NCBI RefSeq assembly: GCF_029227855.1
Contig: NZ_CP074356.1
Source of the DNA: Escherichia coli
Lineage (GTDB): Bacteria > Pseudomonadota > Gammaproteobacteria > Enterobacterales > Enterobacteriaceae
Strand: one strand, 5' to 3'
DNA length: 64,000 bases
Position numbers and translations under genes: made by a program. Below, piece by piece: positions 1,735-37,213 of the stretch. Within the stretch, counting starts at the first letter, position 1; every line of letters begins with the position of its first letter. The notes beneath the pieces were generated by a model that was given only the letters and a program-made list of their open reading frames with translations, searched no databases and had not been told where the DNA came from.

Positions 1735-2445
1735 CTATAAGGCTCTCTTACCAGCCGCGCCCTAACAGGCGCACACGATCTGACATTTGCATCCAACTTC
1801 GTTACTTACGGCCCGTAAACGGGCTGCCCGGATAGGGAATCGATAACTGCTCTCCCATTTTATCCTCTTCAAGCTGGTGCTTTATGTAATCCTGTATCTT
1901 CGCCGTGTTCTTACCCACCGTATCGACGTAGTACCCTCTGCACCAGAACTCCCTGTTCCTGTATTTGAATTTCAAATCACCAAACTGCTCGTAAAGCATC
2001 AGACTGCTTTTCCCTTTCAGATATCCCATAAAGCCGGATACGCTCATTTTGGGCGGGATCTCCACAAGCATATGGATATGATCTGCACAGCATTCAGCTT
2101 CCAGAATCCGTACACTTTTCCACTCACACAGCTTTCTCAAAATACTGCCTATTGCTCTACGCTTCTCTCTGTAGAACACCTGTCTTCGGTATTTTGGCGC
2201 AAAAACTATGTGATATTTACAGTTCCATCGGGTGTGCGCTAAGCTCTTTTCGTTCCCCATTGGGACCCCCTTTTGATTTCTTGTTTGACACTTGCAGTTG
2301 CCAGACCGCAAGGTGTTTTAACAAATCAAAAGGGGTTTTAATAACTGGCTTAAAGCTGAAAGCTTTCCGGAACCCCCAGCCTAGCTGGGGGTTTTCTGTG
2401 CACAAAAAAAACAGGGCTTGCGCCCTGTTTCTTTAATACAGATGT
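1735..2445 (-). mobile_element. IS200-family insertion sequence (about 0.7 kb) inserted between csgA and csgC; boundaries approximate
   Basis: Contains an IS200 TnpA ORF; its upstream leader has an A-run/palindrome/T-run (aaaaaaaacagggcttgcgccctgtttcttt, about 2405-2437) and a second stem-loop overlapping the RBS/ATG (about 2255-2290), as expected for the IS200 left end; the csgA-csgC spacing is about 770 bp versus about 60 bp recalled for K-12. Confidence 0.75.
1802..2260 (-). CDS. tnpA: IS200/IS605-family Y1 (HUH) transposase TnpA
   Basis: Starts MGNEKSLAHTRWNCKYHIVFAPKYRR, contains the HxH motif (ADHIHMLVEIPP) and C-terminal YxxxQ-type region; 152 aa. Confidence 0.9.
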   Translation of the reverse strand: MGNEKSLAHTRWNCKYHIVFAPKYRRQVFYREKRRAIGSILRKLCEWKSVRILEAECCADHIHMLVEIPPKMSVSGFMGYLKGKSSLMLYEQFGDLKFKYRNREFWCRGYYVDTVGKNTAKIQDYIKHQLEEDKMGEQLSIPYPGSPFTGRK

Positions 2446-2448
2446 GAA

Positions 2449-2904
2449 TTAGTACTGATGAGCGGTCGCGTTGTTACCAAAGCCAACCTGAGTGACGTTA
2501 ACGCTGGAGTTAGATGCAGTCTGGTCAACAGCAGCACCGTTACCGCCACCGAACTGTTTAACAGTCATAGTAGAATCTTTACCATTCCACTGATCAAGAG
2601 TAGCGCTGTTGCCGAAACCACGCTGAGTCAGATCGATTGAGCTGTCATCAGAACCTTGGCCAACATCTGCGCCGTTACCGCCGCCGTGCTGGGTAATGGT
2701 CAGATCAGAGTTACGGGCGTCAGCTTGCAGAGCAAGTGCAGAGTTACCGCCACCGTACTGGTAAATGTTCAGCTCTGAATTTGGGCCGCTATTATTACCG
2801 CCACCACCGTGGTTACCGCCGCCGCCGTACTGAGGAACAACACCTGCCAGAGCGCTACCGGAGAATACGATTGCTGCAATTGCTGCTACTTTTAAAAGTT
2901 TCAT
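2449..2904 (-). CDS. csgA: Major curlin subunit CsgA
   Basis: 151 aa, signal peptide, Gly/Asn/Gln-rich imperfect repeats (SxxxxxQxGxGNxA type). Confidence 0.95.
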   Translation of the reverse strand: MKLLKVAAIAAIVFSGSALAGVVPQYGGGGNHGGGGNNSGPNSELNIYQYGGGNSALALQADARNSDLTITQHGGGNGADVGQGSDDSSIDLTQRGFGNSATLDQWNGKDSTMTVKQFGGGNGAAVDQTASNSSVNVTQVGFGNNATAHQY

Positions 2905-2944
2905 GTAAAACCCCCATCGGATTGATTTAAAAGTCGAATAGTAA

Positions 2945-3400
2945 TTAACGTTGTGTCACGCGAATTGCCATTTGCGACTGTCTCTGCACTACAATTGCCG
3001 TTTTTTGAGTACCATACTGTGTAATATTTGCTTTATTACCAGAACCTTTCTGGATAATCATCGCAGTATTACCATAAGCACCTTGCGAAATACTGGCATC
3101 GTTGGCACTGCCCGCCTGATCAATATATGCAAGGTTATAATCTCCTGTCTGATCAATCTTTGCCCGGTTGCTACTACCTTCTTGCGCAACAACCGCCAAA
3201 AGTTTTGAGCCTCCCTGCCGTAACTGAGCACTATTATTAGTCCCAGCTTGACCAATTATGGCTGCCTGATTAAATGAAGACTTACTCAATTCATTTACCG
3301 CGAAGTTATATTCTGAATTAGCTAAATCATAACCTGCTGCGGCTGCAATCCCAGGCGCACCCAGTATTGTTAACATCATAAATAACAATTTGTTTTTCAT
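2945..3400 (-). CDS. csgB: Minor curlin subunit / nucleator CsgB
   Basis: ORF 2945..3427; start at MKNKLLFMMLTILG (151 aa); curlin repeat architecture; upstream of csgA. Confidence 0.93.
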   Translation of the reverse strand: MKNKLLFMMLTILGAPGIAAAAGYDLANSEYNFAVNELSKSSFNQAAIIGQAGTNNSAQLRQGGSKLLAVVAQEGSSNRAKIDQTGDYNLAYIDQAGSANDASISQGAYGNTAMIIQKGSGNKANITQYGTQKTAIVVQRQSQMAIRVTQR

Positions 3401-33896: not shown

Positions 33897-34391
33897 ATGA
33901 ACATTGTCGATCAACAAACTTTTCGCGATGCGATGTCCTGCATGGGCGCGGCGGTCAATATCATCACCACGGACGGTCCAGCCGGGCGCGCCGGGTTCAC
34001 AGCCAGCGCCGTCTGCAGCGTGACCGATACGCCGCCCACATTACTGGTGTGCCTGAATCGTGGGGCGTCCGTCTGGCCGGTATTCAATGAAAATCGAACG
34101 CTGTGTGTAAATACACTTAGCGCCGGGCAGGAGCCGCTTTCAAACCTTTTTGGCGGCAAAACGCCCATGGAACACCGCTTTGCCGCCGCCCGCTGGCAGA
34201 CTGGTGTGACCGGATGCCCGCAACTGGAAGAGGCACTGGTTTCGTTTGACTGCCGTATCAGCCAGGTGGTGAGCGTCGGCACCCACGACATTCTATTTTG
34301 CGCCATCGAAGCGATTCATCGTCACGCCACCCCCTACGGGCTGGTGTGGTTTGATCGCAGTTATCACGCGCTGATGCGCCCTGCTTGTTAA
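33897..34391 (+). CDS. rutF: Flavin reductase RutF
   Basis: Start [14 protein letters not shown] (164 aa) within ORF 33816..34391. Confidence 0.88.
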
Positions 34392-34411
34392 CCTCCTTAA
34401 GGAGACAGCTG

Positions 34412-35740
34412 ATGGCAATGTTCGGTTTTCCTCACTGGCAGTTAAAATCGACCTCTACAGAGAGCGGCGTGGTCGCGCCGGATGAACGATTGCCGTTTGC
34501 TCAGACGGCAGTAATGGGCGTTCAACACGCGGTGGCGATGTTTGGCGCGACGGTGTTAATGCCTATTCTGATGGGGCTGGATCCCAATCTTTCCATTTTG
34601 ATGTCGGGGATCGGCACGTTACTGTTTTTCTTTATTACCGGCGGGCGCGTCCCCAGTTATCTCGGTTCCAGCGCGGCTTTTGTCGGCGTGGTGATTGCCG
34701 CGACGGGCTTTAACGGTCAGGGCATTAACCCGAATATCAGCATCGCGCTGGGCGGGATTATCGCCTGTGGGCTGGTTTATACCGTCATTGGCCTGGTGGT
34801 GATGAAAATCGGTACGCGCTGGATTGAACGACTGATGCCGCCAGTGGTGACGGGTGCGGTGGTGATGGCGATTGGCCTGAACTTAGCGCCTATCGCAGTG
34901 AAAAGTGTATCGGCTTCGGCCTTTGATAGCTGGATGGCGGTAATGACAGTGCTGTGTATTGGGCTAGTGGCGGTGTTTACCCGTGGCATGATCCAGCGAT
35001 TATTGATTCTCGTAGGATTAATTGTCGCCTGTCTGCTGTATGGCGTGATGACCAACGTTTTAGGGCTGGGAAAAGCCGTCGATTTTACTCTCGTCAGCCA
35101 TGCTGCCTGGTTCGGTTTGCCACATTTTTCCACTCCTGCTTTTAATGGTCAGGCAATGATGCTGATTGCGCCCGTGGCGGTGATTCTGGTGGCAGAAAAC
35201 TTAGGTCATCTCAAGGCGGTCGCCGGGATGACCGGACGCAATATGGATCCATATATGGGGCGGGCATTCGTGGGCGATGGGCTGGCAACGATGCTTTCCG
35301 GCTCTGTCGGCGGTAGCGGCGTGACCACCTATGCTGAAAATATCGGTGTGATGGCCGTGACAAAAGTCTACTCGACGCTGGTGTTTGTTGCTGCTGCCGT
35401 CATCGCCATGCTGTTGGGCTTTTCGCCGAAATTTGGCGCGCTGATTCATACCATTCCAGCACCGGTGATTGGTGGTGCATCAATTGTTGTGTTCGGGCTG
35501 ATTGCCGTCGCAGGCGCAAGGATCTGGGTACAAAACCGTGTCGATTTAAGCCAGAACGGTAATTTGATTATGGTCGCAGTAACCTTAGTGCTGGGCGCGG
35601 GTGATTTTGCTCTCACGCTGGGCGGTTTTACGTTGGGAGGGATCGGTACAGCAACCTTTGGCGCGATTTTACTCAATGCGTTGTTAAGCAGAAGGTTGGT
35701 TGACGTTCCACCGCCAGAAGTTGTTCATCAGGAGCCATAA
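34412..35740 (+). CDS. rutG: Pyrimidine permease RutG (NCS2 family)
   Basis: Start MAMFGFPHWQ (442 aa); polytopic membrane protein. Confidence 0.9.
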   Translation: MAMFGFPHWQLKSTSTESGVVAPDERLPFAQTAVMGVQHAVAMFGATVLMPILMGLDPNLSILMSGIGTLLFFFITGGRVPSYLGSSAAFVGVVIAATGFNGQGINPNISIALGGIIACGLVYTVIGLVVMKIGTRWIERLMPPVVTGAVVMAIGLNLAPIAVKSVSASAFDSWMAVMTVLCIGLVAVFTRGMIQRLLILVGLIVACLLYGVMTNVLGLGKAVDFTLVSHAAWFGLPHFSTPAFNGQAMMLIAPVAVILVAENLGHLKAVAGMTGRNMDPYMGRAFVGDGLATMLSGSVGGSGVTTYAENIGVMAVTKVYSTLVFVAAAVIAMLLGFSPKFGALIHTIPAPVIGGASIVVFGLIAVAGARIWVQNRVDLSQNGNLIMVAVTLVLGAGDFALTLGGFTLGGIGTATFGAILLNALLSRRLVDVPPPEVVHQEP

Positions 35741-35747
35741 ATAGAAA

Positions 35748-35780
35748 ACCGCCGGGGTAACCGGCGGTGATGACTTTTTG
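35748..35780 (+). terminator. Intrinsic terminator after rutG
   Basis: accgccggggtaaccggcggt followed by T-rich tract. Confidence 0.6.
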
Positions 35781-35822
35781 ACGAGCTTCAGACAAAAATG
35801 CATGCGTCATTGATTAGCCCGG

Positions 35823-35996
35823 CTAGTTGTCGCTTTTACCGTGACTGCTCTTGCCACCTTTTTTACCTGCTTCTGATGCGCGCTGCGGGTCATTCTTGAA
35901 ATTACCCCCGCTGTGCTGTCCACCTTTTTTACCTGCTTCTGATGCTCTTTCGCGGTCTTCTGCAAAATTGCCGGAACCGCCACGATGGTTTGCCAT
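35823..35996 (-). CDS. ymdF: KGG-repeat stress-induced small protein YmdF
   Basis: 57 aa starting MANHRGGSGNF with duplicated (Q/E)RASEAGKKGG motif. Confidence 0.85.
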   Translation of the reverse strand: MANHRGGSGNFAEDRERASEAGKKGGQHSGGNFKNDPQRASEAGKKGGKSSHGKSDN

Positions 35997-36350
35997 TACT
36001 GACCTCCGTCTGGGTATAGACATCATATTGCATAGAATTAACGCGGCGTATGGCGGCTGCCATATTTTCGCTACGTGGGACTAAGCTTAGTGAACTGACG
36101 CGGGCAGACCCGCATTTAGTAATATCCTGCAACAGCTTCTTAGCGAGAATAGATATCATCTCCAATAATTATCCATAAGCCGCTCTTATGATTAAAAAAA
36201 CGCGATGAGATAAAAATGTGTCATTTTGCGACAAAATTAAGTGCTTGTGAAAGTTGTTATAAATCAAATAAGTGGTTGTGAAATTTGCACTCTGAAAAGG
36301 ACGTCTTATCTTTAAATAAGTGGTAGCGAATCGCTACGGAATAGAGATAA

Positions 36351-36965
<615 letters not shown>

Positions 36966-36985
36966 TCTTCAACAGGAGGATACGC

Positions 36986-37213
36986 ATGCCAACTCAAGAA
37001 GCGAAAGCTCATCACGTCGGTGAATGGGCATCTCTGCGCAATACGTCGCCGGAAATAGCCGAGGCCATTTTCGAAGTCGCCGGGTACGACGAAAAAATGG
37101 CGGAAAAGATTTGGGAAGAAGGTAGCGATGAAGTGTTAGTCAAAGCCTTTGCTAAGACCGATAAAGATTCGCTTTTTTGGGGCGAACAGACCATCGAACG
37201 TAAAAACGTTTAA
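36986..37213 (+). CDS. yccJ: Small protein YccJ
   Basis: 75 aa immediately downstream of wrbA. Confidence 0.85.

What the first reader, a model, noticed from the sequence alone, without database searches (positions are those of the whole stretch)
35823..35996. ymdF contains an internal tandem duplication at DNA and protein level
Two nearly identical segments of about 25 bp (ccacctttttt acctgcttctgatgc, at about 35855-35880 and 35923-35948) encode the repeated (Q/E)RASEAGKKGG motif. This marks a KGG-repeat stress protein and is a potential slippage-prone repeat that could vary in copy number between strains.
Basis: seen in the sequence. Interest (0 to 1): 0.15.

Follow-up and report, generated by a model that had tools for sequence, protein, structure and literature searches.

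The report
ymdF repeat that loses one unit
The small stress gene ymdF contains two copies of a 22-codon "KGG" unit that share an exact 26-base stretch, and across Escherichia genomes this repeat has repeatedly lost exactly one unit (all O157:H7-type genomes found here), while no gain was found; it is an ordinary known gene with a real but modest length polymorphism.

Summary
ymdF (35823-35996, minus strand, 57 aa) holds an exact 26-nt direct repeat at 35854-35879 and 35920-35945. The period is 66 nt, or 22 codons, and each copy encodes ASEAGKKGG. Pfam finds two KGG units (PF10685).

Of 5,426 complete E. coli genomes, 350 carry a precise in-frame 66-bp deletion that leaves a 35-aa protein with one KGG unit. 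Of these, 298 have the O157:H7-type flank and 52 have other flanks. No 3-copy allele was found in those genomes, and the exact 3- and 4-unit proteins are absent from a 15-billion-protein collection.

The deletion is recurrent. Four one-copy haplotypes each differ by 0-2 SNPs over 2.4-3.2 kb from a different two-copy genome (O55:H7 DEC5A, UTI89, strain 504838, K-12). The lineages themselves differ by 44-78 SNPs. E. albertii shows two different junctions, and E. fergusonii also has a 35-aa allele. The paralog yciG shows the same deletion in 14 genomes.

The perfect 26-mer of the window is a minority allele (136 genomes). Most strains have 20 nt or fewer.

The best explanation is misalignment between the short direct repeats of an ancient duplication, most likely replication slippage. 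The gene, its family and this kind of mutation are all known, so interest is low to moderate.

The parts
35823..35996 (-). ymdF coding sequence (57 codons plus stop). It encodes a small, Gly-rich, highly hydrophilic KGG-repeat general stress protein.
   Evidence: ORF list and translation. Pfam KGG with two stretches, E=1.6e-18. Annotated as ymdF in 5,000+ RefSeq genomes. The protein is identical to K-12 b4518. Gly 21%, GRAVY -1.71.
35919..35984 (-). KGG unit 1 (codons 5-26, HRGGSGNFAEDRERASEAGKKGG).
   Evidence: Codon-by-codon comparison at an offset of 22 codons. The one-unit protein, which keeps residues 1-26, gives a single Pfam KGG stretch at residues 10-30.
35853..35918 (-). KGG unit 2 (codons 27-48, QHSGGNFKNDPQRASEAGKKGG).
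   Evidence: Pfam best stretch at residues 32-52.
35920..35945 (-). Direct-repeat copy 1 in gene orientation: GCATCAGAAGCAGGTAAAAAAGGTGG (codons 18-25 plus 2 nt).
   Evidence: Exact 26-nt match to 35854-35879. Identical in every Escherichia two-unit allele compared here.
35854..35879 (-). Direct-repeat copy 2 in gene orientation (codons 40-47 plus 2 nt). This is the polymorphic copy: most E. coli have TCT instead of TCA at Ser41, which shortens the exact repeat to 20 nt.
   Evidence: The window-type copy 2 is present in only 136 of 5,426 genomes.
35880..35919 (-). 40-nt spacer between the two repeat copies. Together with one repeat copy it forms the 66-nt segment missing from the one-unit alleles. 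On the + strand it contains a modest hairpin.
   Evidence: Alignment of the window with O157:H7 shows a single 66-nt gap flanked by the repeat. DNA fold gives -10.2 kcal/mol, z=-3.4 on the + strand.
36003..36007 (-). Shine-Dalgarno GGAGG, 6 nt upstream of the ATG at 35996-35994.
   Evidence: Read directly from the sequence. It supports the 57-aa start rather than the in-frame upstream ATG at 36026.
36014..36019 (-). CTATAC hexamer (context TGTCTATACCC). This is a candidate sigma-S-type -10 element and is inferred only.
   Evidence: Sequence. The resemblance to the sigma-S -10 consensus CTATACT comes from general knowledge. RpoS dependence of ymdF is reported in PMC7161692 and PMC5437024. The sigma-70 scan found nothing convincing nearby.
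35748..35768 (.). GC-rich hairpin with T-runs on both strands. It looks like a bidirectional intrinsic terminator shared by the convergent genes rutG and ymdF.
   Evidence: Terminator scan hits on both strands.

Best explanation
ymdF encodes a small KGG-repeat protein built from two tandem 22-residue units. The literature describes it as intrinsically disordered and RpoS-dependent. The duplication that made the two units is ancient: every ortholog and paralog examined in Enterobacteriaceae has both.

In Escherichia the DNA of the two ASEAGKKGG cores has become nearly or fully identical. It is 26/26 in this window, 20 exact nt in most E. coli, and two 8-nt blocks in the E. albertii type strain. 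These short direct repeats lie 66 nt apart and act as a deletion hotspot. Misalignment between them removes exactly one unit in frame and gives a 35-aa protein with a single KGG unit.

Shown here:
- The deletion is precise.
- It is present in 6.5% of complete E. coli genomes.
- It arose independently at least 4 times in E. coli and at least twice in E. albertii. It is also present in E. fergusonii.
- Expansions were not found.

Inferred:
- The misalignment happens by RecA-independent replication slippage. Junctions lie in homologies of 8-20 nt, which by general knowledge is below what RecA-dependent recombination needs to be efficient.
- The one-unit protein keeps at least part of its function, because the frame, the start, the C-terminus and one full KGG unit are all retained.
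For: - Anatomy of the repeat.
- Family assignment.
- Precise 66-bp deletion in O157:H7.
- Count of one-unit alleles: 350 of 5,426 genomes by a junction-specific query. An independent query gave the same 350, split into 298 O157-type and 52 others.
- Independent origins, one-copy versus nearest two-copy genome:
  - O157 vs O55:H7 DEC5A: 1 SNP and a 1-nt indel over 3,208 nt.
  - EC21GDE043 vs UTI89: 1 SNP over 3,077 nt.
  - DETEC-P829 vs strain 504838: 2 SNPs over 3,077 nt.
  - E-ge-1 vs K-12: 0 SNPs over 2,399 nt.
  - The four haplotype groups differ from one another by 46-77 SNPs over 2,630 shared columns.
- Different chimeric junctions: two in E. albertii (crossover in GAAGCAGG versus AAAAAAGG), and a species-specific allele in E. 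fergusonii. Ec1120 has a junction shifted by 6 nt.
- Same process in the paralog: a 37-aa YciG is seen on 301 contigs and in 14 of 5,426 genomes. Its junction lies in the 11-nt exact repeat of yciG.
- No expansion.
- Ancient duplication and lower core identity outside Escherichia: mean 20/27, longest exact repeat 6-15 nt.
- Function and regulation come from the literature: PMC9262955 (a ymdF deletion mutant has defective biofilm and is about 100-fold more sensitive to H2O2), PMC7161692 and PMC5437024 (RpoS-dependent, KGG family, hydrophilin), and bioRxiv 10.64898/2026.04.09.717482 (redundant intrinsically disordered proteins in acid stress).
Against: - No mutation rate was measured, so "hotspot" rests on phylogenetic recurrence only.
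- The higher frequency in ymdF (350 genomes) than in yciG (14) is dominated by one clone, O157:H7. It is therefore only weakly informative about a dependence on repeat length.
- Slippage should in principle also give 3-unit alleles, and none was seen. This needs either a mechanistic bias or selection against them, and neither was tested.
- None of the deletions traced to a parent comes from the window's own 26-nt allele. Each nearest two-copy genome compared has the 20-nt allele.
- The function of the 35-aa protein is untested.
Confidence: 0.8

Rival explanations
1. There was a single ancestral deletion, which then spread between lineages by homologous recombination. On this view the deletion is not recurrent.
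For: The one-unit CDS is identical or nearly identical in several E. coli lineages. E. coli is known to recombine (general knowledge).
Against: - Each one-unit haplotype matches a different two-unit genome at 0-2 SNPs over 2.4-3.2 kb, including SNPs 1 nt and 15 nt from the repeat (GGT/GGC at Gly48 and at Gly53). An imported tract would have to be shorter than about 100 nt each time.
- E. albertii alleles carry two different chimeric junctions and species-specific 3' ends.
- yciG shows the same type of deletion at a different locus.
Confidence: 0.04
2. The misalignment happens by RecA-dependent unequal crossing-over or gene conversion between sister chromosomes, not by replication slippage.
For: The 20-26-nt exact repeats of E. 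coli are close to the minimal length usually quoted for RecA-mediated recombination (general knowledge). The outcome, a precise unit loss, is the same under both mechanisms.
Against: - Junctions in 8-nt blocks in E. albertii and in an 11-nt block in yciG are too short for efficient RecA pairing.
- Reciprocal unequal exchange would be expected to produce 3-unit alleles as well, and none was found.
- This is indirect evidence only.
Confidence: 0.12
3. The one-unit allele is favoured by selection, for example in the O157:H7 niche. On this view its frequency reflects adaptation and not mutation plus hitch-hiking.
For: - All 298 genomes with the O157-type flank and the deletion are 100% or nearly 100% identical across the locus, and the allele appears fixed in that clone.
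- The same change recurs in at least 7 backgrounds.
- ymdF has measurable phenotypes (PMC9262955).
Against: - Fixation in a young clone is expected from descent alone.
- Outside O157 the allele is rare and scattered (52 of about 5,100 genomes).
- Paralogs are reported to be redundant (bioRxiv 10.64898/2026.04.09.717482), so the effect of losing one unit is probably small.
- No phenotype data exist for the 35-aa form.
Confidence: 0.12
4. The one-unit alleles are assembly or sequencing artefacts (collapsed repeats).
For: Repeats can collapse in short-read assemblies (general knowledge).
Against: - The whole repeat region is 92 nt, shorter than a single read.
- The allele is seen in 350 complete genomes from many laboratories and platforms.
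- The allele is lineage-consistent: the O157-type flank carries it, while O55:H7 DEC5A and 61 other genomes with the same upstream sequence have two units.
- The exact 35-aa protein occurs on at least 1,000 contigs.
Confidence: 0.01

Closest known systems
YciG (E. coli b1259), the RpoS-dependent KGG paralog in the yciGFE operon
   Same: - It has the same two-unit KGG architecture and a nearly identical N-terminal 48 residues.
- It hits the same Pfam family.
- It shows the same one-unit in-frame deletion polymorphism.
   Different: - It is at a different locus, with a different C-terminus (QQSGGNKSGKS).
- Its DNA is diverged from ymdF, and its longest exact internal repeat is only 11 nt.
- The deletion allele is much rarer (14 genomes against 350).
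- It is not the donor of the window's repeat sequence.
PA2146 / PA2190 of Pseudomonas aeruginosa and the three ymdF paralogs of Klebsiella pneumoniae (PMC9262955)
   Same: - They are small KGG proteins induced in biofilms.
- E. coli ymdF complements a PA2146 deletion mutant.
[quoted passage not shown]
   Different: Those are differences between genes and species. Here the unit number varies between strains at one orthologous locus.
GsiB of Bacillus subtilis, plant group 1 LEA (Em) proteins and Neurospora con-10, all hydrophilins with repeated 20-22-residue Gly-rich units (from general knowledge; RefSeq names ymdF 'con-10 family general stress protein')
   Same: They are highly hydrophilic, Gly-rich, presumably disordered and stress-induced, and are built from tandem copies of a short unit whose number differs between members.
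   Different: No match to the Pfam group 1 LEA family appeared at E<=1, so only KGG membership is shown here. GsiB and LEA proteins carry more units.
Deletions between short direct repeats by replication slippage, as in the classic lacI deletion hotspots and the RecA-independent tandem-repeat deletion studied in E. coli (general knowledge)
   Same: The event is a precise loss of one repeat copy plus the spacer, with junctions inside short homologies of 8-26 nt and repeats less than 100 nt apart.
   Different: Here it is seen as a natural, recurrent, in-frame polymorphism in a protein repeat. It was not measured as a laboratory mutation rate.
Phase-variable contingency loci (simple-sequence repeats that switch genes on and off)
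   Same: In both, repeat-mediated slippage changes a gene's length.
   Different: - The unit is 66 nt and in frame, and only two copies exist.
- No expansion or reversion was seen.
- The product stays in frame, so this is not a switch.

Membership tests
Pfam KGG (PF10685), stress-induced bacterial acidophilic repeat motif | Match to the 22-residue KGG profile above the gathering score. | tested here: met
   67 bits against a cutoff of 20.4, two stretches covering the full profile. The 35-aa allele keeps one stretch at 39 bits.
YmdF orthologous group (E. coli b4518) | Same protein and same genomic position, between wrbA and rutG and convergent with rutG. | tested here: met
   The protein is identical to K-12 YmdF. 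The neighbours rutG, wrbA and yccJ are as in K-12. The locus is found in 5,417 of 5,426 genomes.
Hydrophilins (Garay-Arroyo et al. 2000, cited in PMC5437024) | Gly content above 6% and very high hydrophilicity. | tested here: met
   Gly 21.1%, GRAVY -1.71, and only 3 hydrophobic residues in 57. The original index was not computed exactly.
Intrinsically disordered KGG stress proteins (YciG / YmdF / STM14_1829) | Lack of stable structure in solution. | not tested
   Disorder is reported for the Salmonella orthologs in the literature (cited in PMC7161692). No relative has a solved structure. The composition is consistent with disorder. No structure prediction was run.
RpoS regulon | Transcription depends on sigma-S. 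| not testable with these tools
   This rests on the literature only (PMC7161692, PMC5437024). A CTATAC hexamer at 36014-36019 is compatible with it but is only a consensus resemblance.
Phase-variable / contingency repeat loci | Reversible gain and loss of repeat units that switch expression or reading frame. | tested here: not met
   Only a 2-to-1 change was seen, and it is in frame. No 3-unit DNA was found in 5,426 genomes, and the exact 3- and 4-unit proteins are absent from the collection. The longer close homologs that were read in full are alternative start calls or frameshifts, except one distant protein with three KGG-like units.
P-loop (Walker A) nucleotide-binding proteins, mentioned in the Pfam KGG description as quoted in PMC9262955 | A GxxxxGK[ST] motif within a P-loop NTPase fold. 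| tested here: inconclusive
   The bare pattern is present (G48-KSSH-G53-K54-S55, read from the sequence). No NTPase family is hit, and a 57-residue protein is too small for the fold. This is most likely a chance match.

The most novel reading that the evidence does not exclude
Loss of one KGG unit in ymdF may be a recurrent adaptive change. On this reading it is fixed in O157:H7 after its split from O55:H7-like ancestors and is repeatedly sampled in other Escherichia lineages. The dosage of KGG units would then tune biofilm formation or stress tolerance. Homogenisation of the two cores in Escherichia (Arg23 CGN changed to Lys AAA, matching unit 2) would be the intragenic conversion that created the mutable site.
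Probability: 0.1. Interest if true: 0.5.

Novelty: already known. Interest (0 to 1): 0.22.

Why it matters
The gene, its KGG repeats and repeat-mediated deletion are all textbook or database knowledge. What this check adds is modest.

- It provides a natural allelic series of one versus two KGG units, in near-isogenic pairs such as O55:H7 versus O157:H7, K-12 versus E-ge-1, and UTI89 versus EC21GDE043. This could be used to ask what a KGG unit contributes, in a family whose molecular function is still unknown.
- The 66-bp deletion is a simple size difference between the O157-type genomes seen here and O55:H7 DEC5A.
- I found no paper describing this polymorphism in the searchable library.

Tried and rejected
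- The repeat finder and Tandem Repeats Finder returned nothing for this region. The repeat was confirmed by direct string matching.
The true offset is 66 nt.
- The first junction-specific BLAST queries were uninformative, because the tool joined overlapping pieces, so two-unit genomes also reached 100% coverage. Repeating them with E-value limits that only a contiguous match can pass gave clean counts.
- Ectopic gene conversion from yciG as the source of the window's perfect repeat was rejected. The yciG DNA differs at many sites in that stretch.
- The longer close homologs (69-91 aa) were inspected as possible 3-unit alleles. All were alternative start calls or C-terminal frameshifts, apart from one distant 91-aa protein with three KGG-like units.
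- NCBIfam gave no hit, and the PDB sequence search gave no hit.
- One-unit forms of Salmonella YmdF (the two exact sequences tried) are not in the protein collection.
- Literature searches for the O157 deletion found nothing relevant. The O157 locus tags used there were guessed.
- Whole-locus alignments of E. albertii loci with different flank lengths were too messy to count SNPs. Only the CDS comparison from that call is used.

Full report
**What is there.** The minus strand of 35823-35996 is a 57-codon ORF encoding MANHRGGSGNFAEDRERASEAGKKGGQHSGGNFKNDPQRASEAGKKGGKSSHGKSDN.
- It lies between rutG (34385-35740, +) and wrbA/yccJ (36369-37213, +). This is the arrangement of ymdF (b4518) in K-12 MG1655, and the K-12 protein is identical.
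- Pfam assigns it to KGG (PF10685), with 67 bits against a cutoff of 20.4 and two full-length stretches. NCBIfam has no model for it, and no relative has a solved structure.
- The protein is 21% Gly, has GRAVY -1.71 and contains three hydrophobic residues. This fits the "hydrophilin" label given to the family in PMC5437024.
- A GGAGG lies 6 nt before the ATG.
- A GC-rich hairpin at 35748-35768 has T-runs on both strands and looks like a shared terminator for the convergent rutG and ymdF.
- A CTATAC hexamer at 36014-36019 resembles a sigma-S -10 element. That is a resemblance only.

**The observation.** The 26-mer CCACCTTTTTTACCTGCTTCTGATGC occurs exactly twice, at 35854-35879 and 35920-35945.
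- The period is 66 nt, or 22 codons, which equals the length of the Pfam KGG unit.
- The shared core encodes ASEAGKKG(G) with identical codons at all eight positions. Given the amino acids and the window's codon usage, this has a probability of about 3e-4.
- Outside the core the two units are only 14/27 identical.
- All 80 related loci fetched from other genomes (mostly Enterobacteriaceae, plus a few unclassified metagenome bins) have both units.
- The protein duplication is therefore ancient. What is unusual in this window is the DNA identity of the cores.
- The repeat finder and TRF missed the repeat.

**The repeat is itself polymorphic.**

| Allele or group | Longest exact repeat at the 66-nt period |
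|---|---|
| Window | 26 nt |
| K-12, UTI89, strain 504838, O55:H7 DEC5A (TCT instead of TCA at Ser41 of unit 2) | 20 nt |
| E. coli SCPM-O-B-8794 | 11 nt |
| E. coli E69 and the E. albertii type strain | 8 nt |
| The 77 non-Escherichia loci (any period) | 6-15 nt; core identity averages 20/27 |

- Only 136 of 5,426 complete E. coli genomes carry the window's perfect copy 2.
- In all 77 non-Escherichia loci codon 23 is Arg (CGN). In the three Escherichia loci fetched with them, and in every other Escherichia ymdF read here, it is Lys AAA, matching codon 45 of unit 2.
- This is compatible with an intragenic conversion in the Escherichia ancestor, but stepwise mutation is not excluded.
- yciG is not the donor of the window's repeat sequence.

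**Does copy number vary?** Yes, but only downward.
- A survey of the locus in 5,426 complete E. coli genomes showed O157:H7 records matching in two pieces over a span about 66 nt short.
- Alignment shows a single precise 66-nt gap bounded by the repeat. The reading frame stays intact and encodes the 35-aa protein MANHRGGSGNFAEDRERASEAGKKGGKSSHGKSDN. This protein has one KGG stretch.
- A junction-specific query (left flank, one repeat, right flank), run at an E-value limit that only a contiguous match can pass, found 350 genomes.
- An independent 318-nt query from the O157 allele again found 350. These split into 298 with the O157-type flank and 52 others. It also found 62 genomes with an O157-type upstream sequence but two units, including O55:H7 DEC5A.
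- A query diagnostic for three units (spacer, repeat, spacer) found nothing.
- The exact 79-aa and 101-aa proteins are absent from a collection of about 15 billion proteins, whereas the 57-aa and 35-aa forms are each on at least 1,000 contigs.
- The longer close homologs that were read in full are start-site or frameshift artefacts, apart from one distant protein with three KGG-like units.

**Is the deletion recurrent?** Yes.
- One-unit loci from O157 and from ten non-O157 strains fall into four flank haplotype groups. The groups differ from one another by 46-77 SNPs over 2,630 shared columns.
- Each group is almost identical to a different two-unit genome:

| One-unit genome | Nearest two-unit genome | Differences besides the 66-nt gap |
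|---|---|---|
| O157 FRIK2069 | O55:H7 DEC5A | 1 SNP and a 1-nt indel over 3,208 nt |
| EC21GDE043 | UTI89 | 1 SNP over 3,077 nt |
| DETEC-P829 | strain 504838 | 2 SNPs over 3,077 nt |
| E-ge-1 | K-12 MG1655 | 0 SNPs over 2,399 nt |

- BLAST ranking confirms that two-unit genomes are the nearest neighbours of the non-O157 one-unit haplotypes.
- Ec1120 keeps TCT, so its junction lies 6 nt further upstream.
- All four of these nearest two-unit alleles carry the 20-nt repeat.
- 35-aa alleles also occur in E. albertii (50 contigs against 643 for the 57-aa form), in E. fergusonii (7 against 288) and in Shigella flexneri.
- Two E. albertii alleles have different chimeric junctions, one with the crossover in GAAGCAGG and one in AAAAAAGG. 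Both have species-specific 3' ends, so they are separate events on 8-nt homologies.
- The paralog yciG has a longest internal exact repeat of 11 nt, AAAGGCGGTCA. It shows the analogous 37-aa allele on 301 contigs and in 14 of 5,426 genomes on at least two haplotypes.
- Strain XYEH3934 carries both short alleles.
- Two exact one-unit forms of Salmonella YmdF were not found.

**Mechanism.**
- Shown: precise, in-frame, recurrent loss of one repeat copy plus the spacer, with junctions inside 8-20-nt homologies that lie 66 nt apart.
- Inferred: RecA-independent slipped misalignment during replication. This is the established route for deletions between short, close direct repeats (general knowledge).
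- The spacer can form a modest hairpin on the + strand (-10.2 kcal/mol, z=-3.4). This might help bring the repeats together, but that is speculative.
- RecA-dependent unequal exchange is less likely, given the 8- and 11-nt junctions and the absence of the reciprocal 3-unit product. It was not tested.
- Spread of a single deletion by recombination is very unlikely, given the flank data and the different junctions.
- An assembly artefact is excluded in practice, because the whole repeat region is 92 nt and the allele is consistent within lineages across hundreds of independent complete genomes.
- Whether the one-unit allele is neutral or selected is open. Its high count is mostly one clone.

**What the gene does (literature, not tested here).**
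- ymdF, yciG and, in Salmonella, STM14_1829 are RpoS-dependent small KGG proteins reported to be intrinsically disordered (PMC7161692, PMC5437024).
- An E. coli ymdF deletion mutant forms only patchy biofilm and is about 100-fold more sensitive to H2O2 in biofilms. ymdF and P. aeruginosa PA2146 cross-complement (PMC9262955).
- In S. Typhimurium the paralogs act redundantly at pH 4.5 (bioRxiv 10.64898/2026.04.09.717482).
- The molecular mechanism of the KGG unit is unknown.
- I found no paper mentioning the O157:H7 one-unit allele.

**Verdict.** ymdF is a known KGG-repeat stress gene, and its internal direct repeat is a real, recurrently used deletion site. This gives a 1-versus-2-unit polymorphism in which every genome with the O157:H7-type allele has one unit. 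No expansion was seen. Everything fits known categories, so novelty is "already known". The added value is a tidy natural allelic series and a lineage marker. Interest is about 0.2.

Noticed in passing
window 35741-35822; L094 2756-3011; L011 and L012 about 1588-1843: The ymdF-rutG spacer is 82 nt in the window. K-12 MG1655, E-ge-1 and Ec1120 carry an extra 174 nt there. The insert contains two REP-like palindromes (GCCTGATGCG...TATCAGGCCTAC and GTAGGCCGGATAAGGCG...CATCCGGC), so this is a BIME/REP insertion polymorphism (the REP identification is from general knowledge).
   Followed up: partly
L002 (E. coli D53-1) 1843-3190: An IS1B element replaces the 3' end of rutF, all of rutG and ymdF. 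This is one of the few genomes that lack ymdF.
   Followed up: no
L095 (UTI89) 1707-2929; L003 1670-2892: rutG is annotated as frameshifted in UTI89/ST95-type genomes and has a 106-nt gap relative to O157. The pyrimidine permease is probably a pseudogene in that lineage.
   Followed up: no
L098-L101 (E. albertii, E. fergusonii) 1820-3108: In these species ymdF is followed by a TetR-family gene (rutR-like), and in E. albertii putA comes next. No rutA-G operon lies in between, so the rut operon is absent from this position.
   Followed up: no
yciG, L093 3857-4036 (K-12); hits H351-H364: The paralog yciG has an analogous one-unit (66-nt) in-frame deletion allele of 37 aa in 14 of 5,426 genomes. 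Strain XYEH3934 carries the short alleles of both ymdF and yciG.
   Followed up: partly
window 35832-35855 (codons 48-55): The C-terminal GKSSHGKS fits the bare Walker A pattern GxxxxGK[ST], although PMC9262955 states that YmdF lacks such a motif. It is retained in the 35-aa allele. In a 57-residue Gly-rich, highly hydrophilic protein this is almost certainly not a P-loop.
   Followed up: no
window 35997-36026 and upstream: In-frame ATGs upstream (36026 and 36023) give a 67-aa ORF. Some pipelines call extended versions of 45, 69 or 89 aa (P0025, P0098, P0064, P0065). The GGAGG at 36003-36007 favours the 57-aa start.
   Followed up: partly
codon 23 of ymdF (window 35928-35930) compared with L016-L092: All 77 non-Escherichia loci fetched have Arg (CGN) at codon 23. 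The Escherichia alleles examined have Lys AAA, identical to codon 45 of unit 2. This multi-base change could be an old intragenic conversion that lengthened the repeat.
   Followed up: partly
summaries: A few ymdF matches are on records labelled as plasmids, for example a 212-kb EDL933 record (NZ_CP124742.1). These are probably chromosome fragments mislabelled in the assemblies.
   Followed up: no
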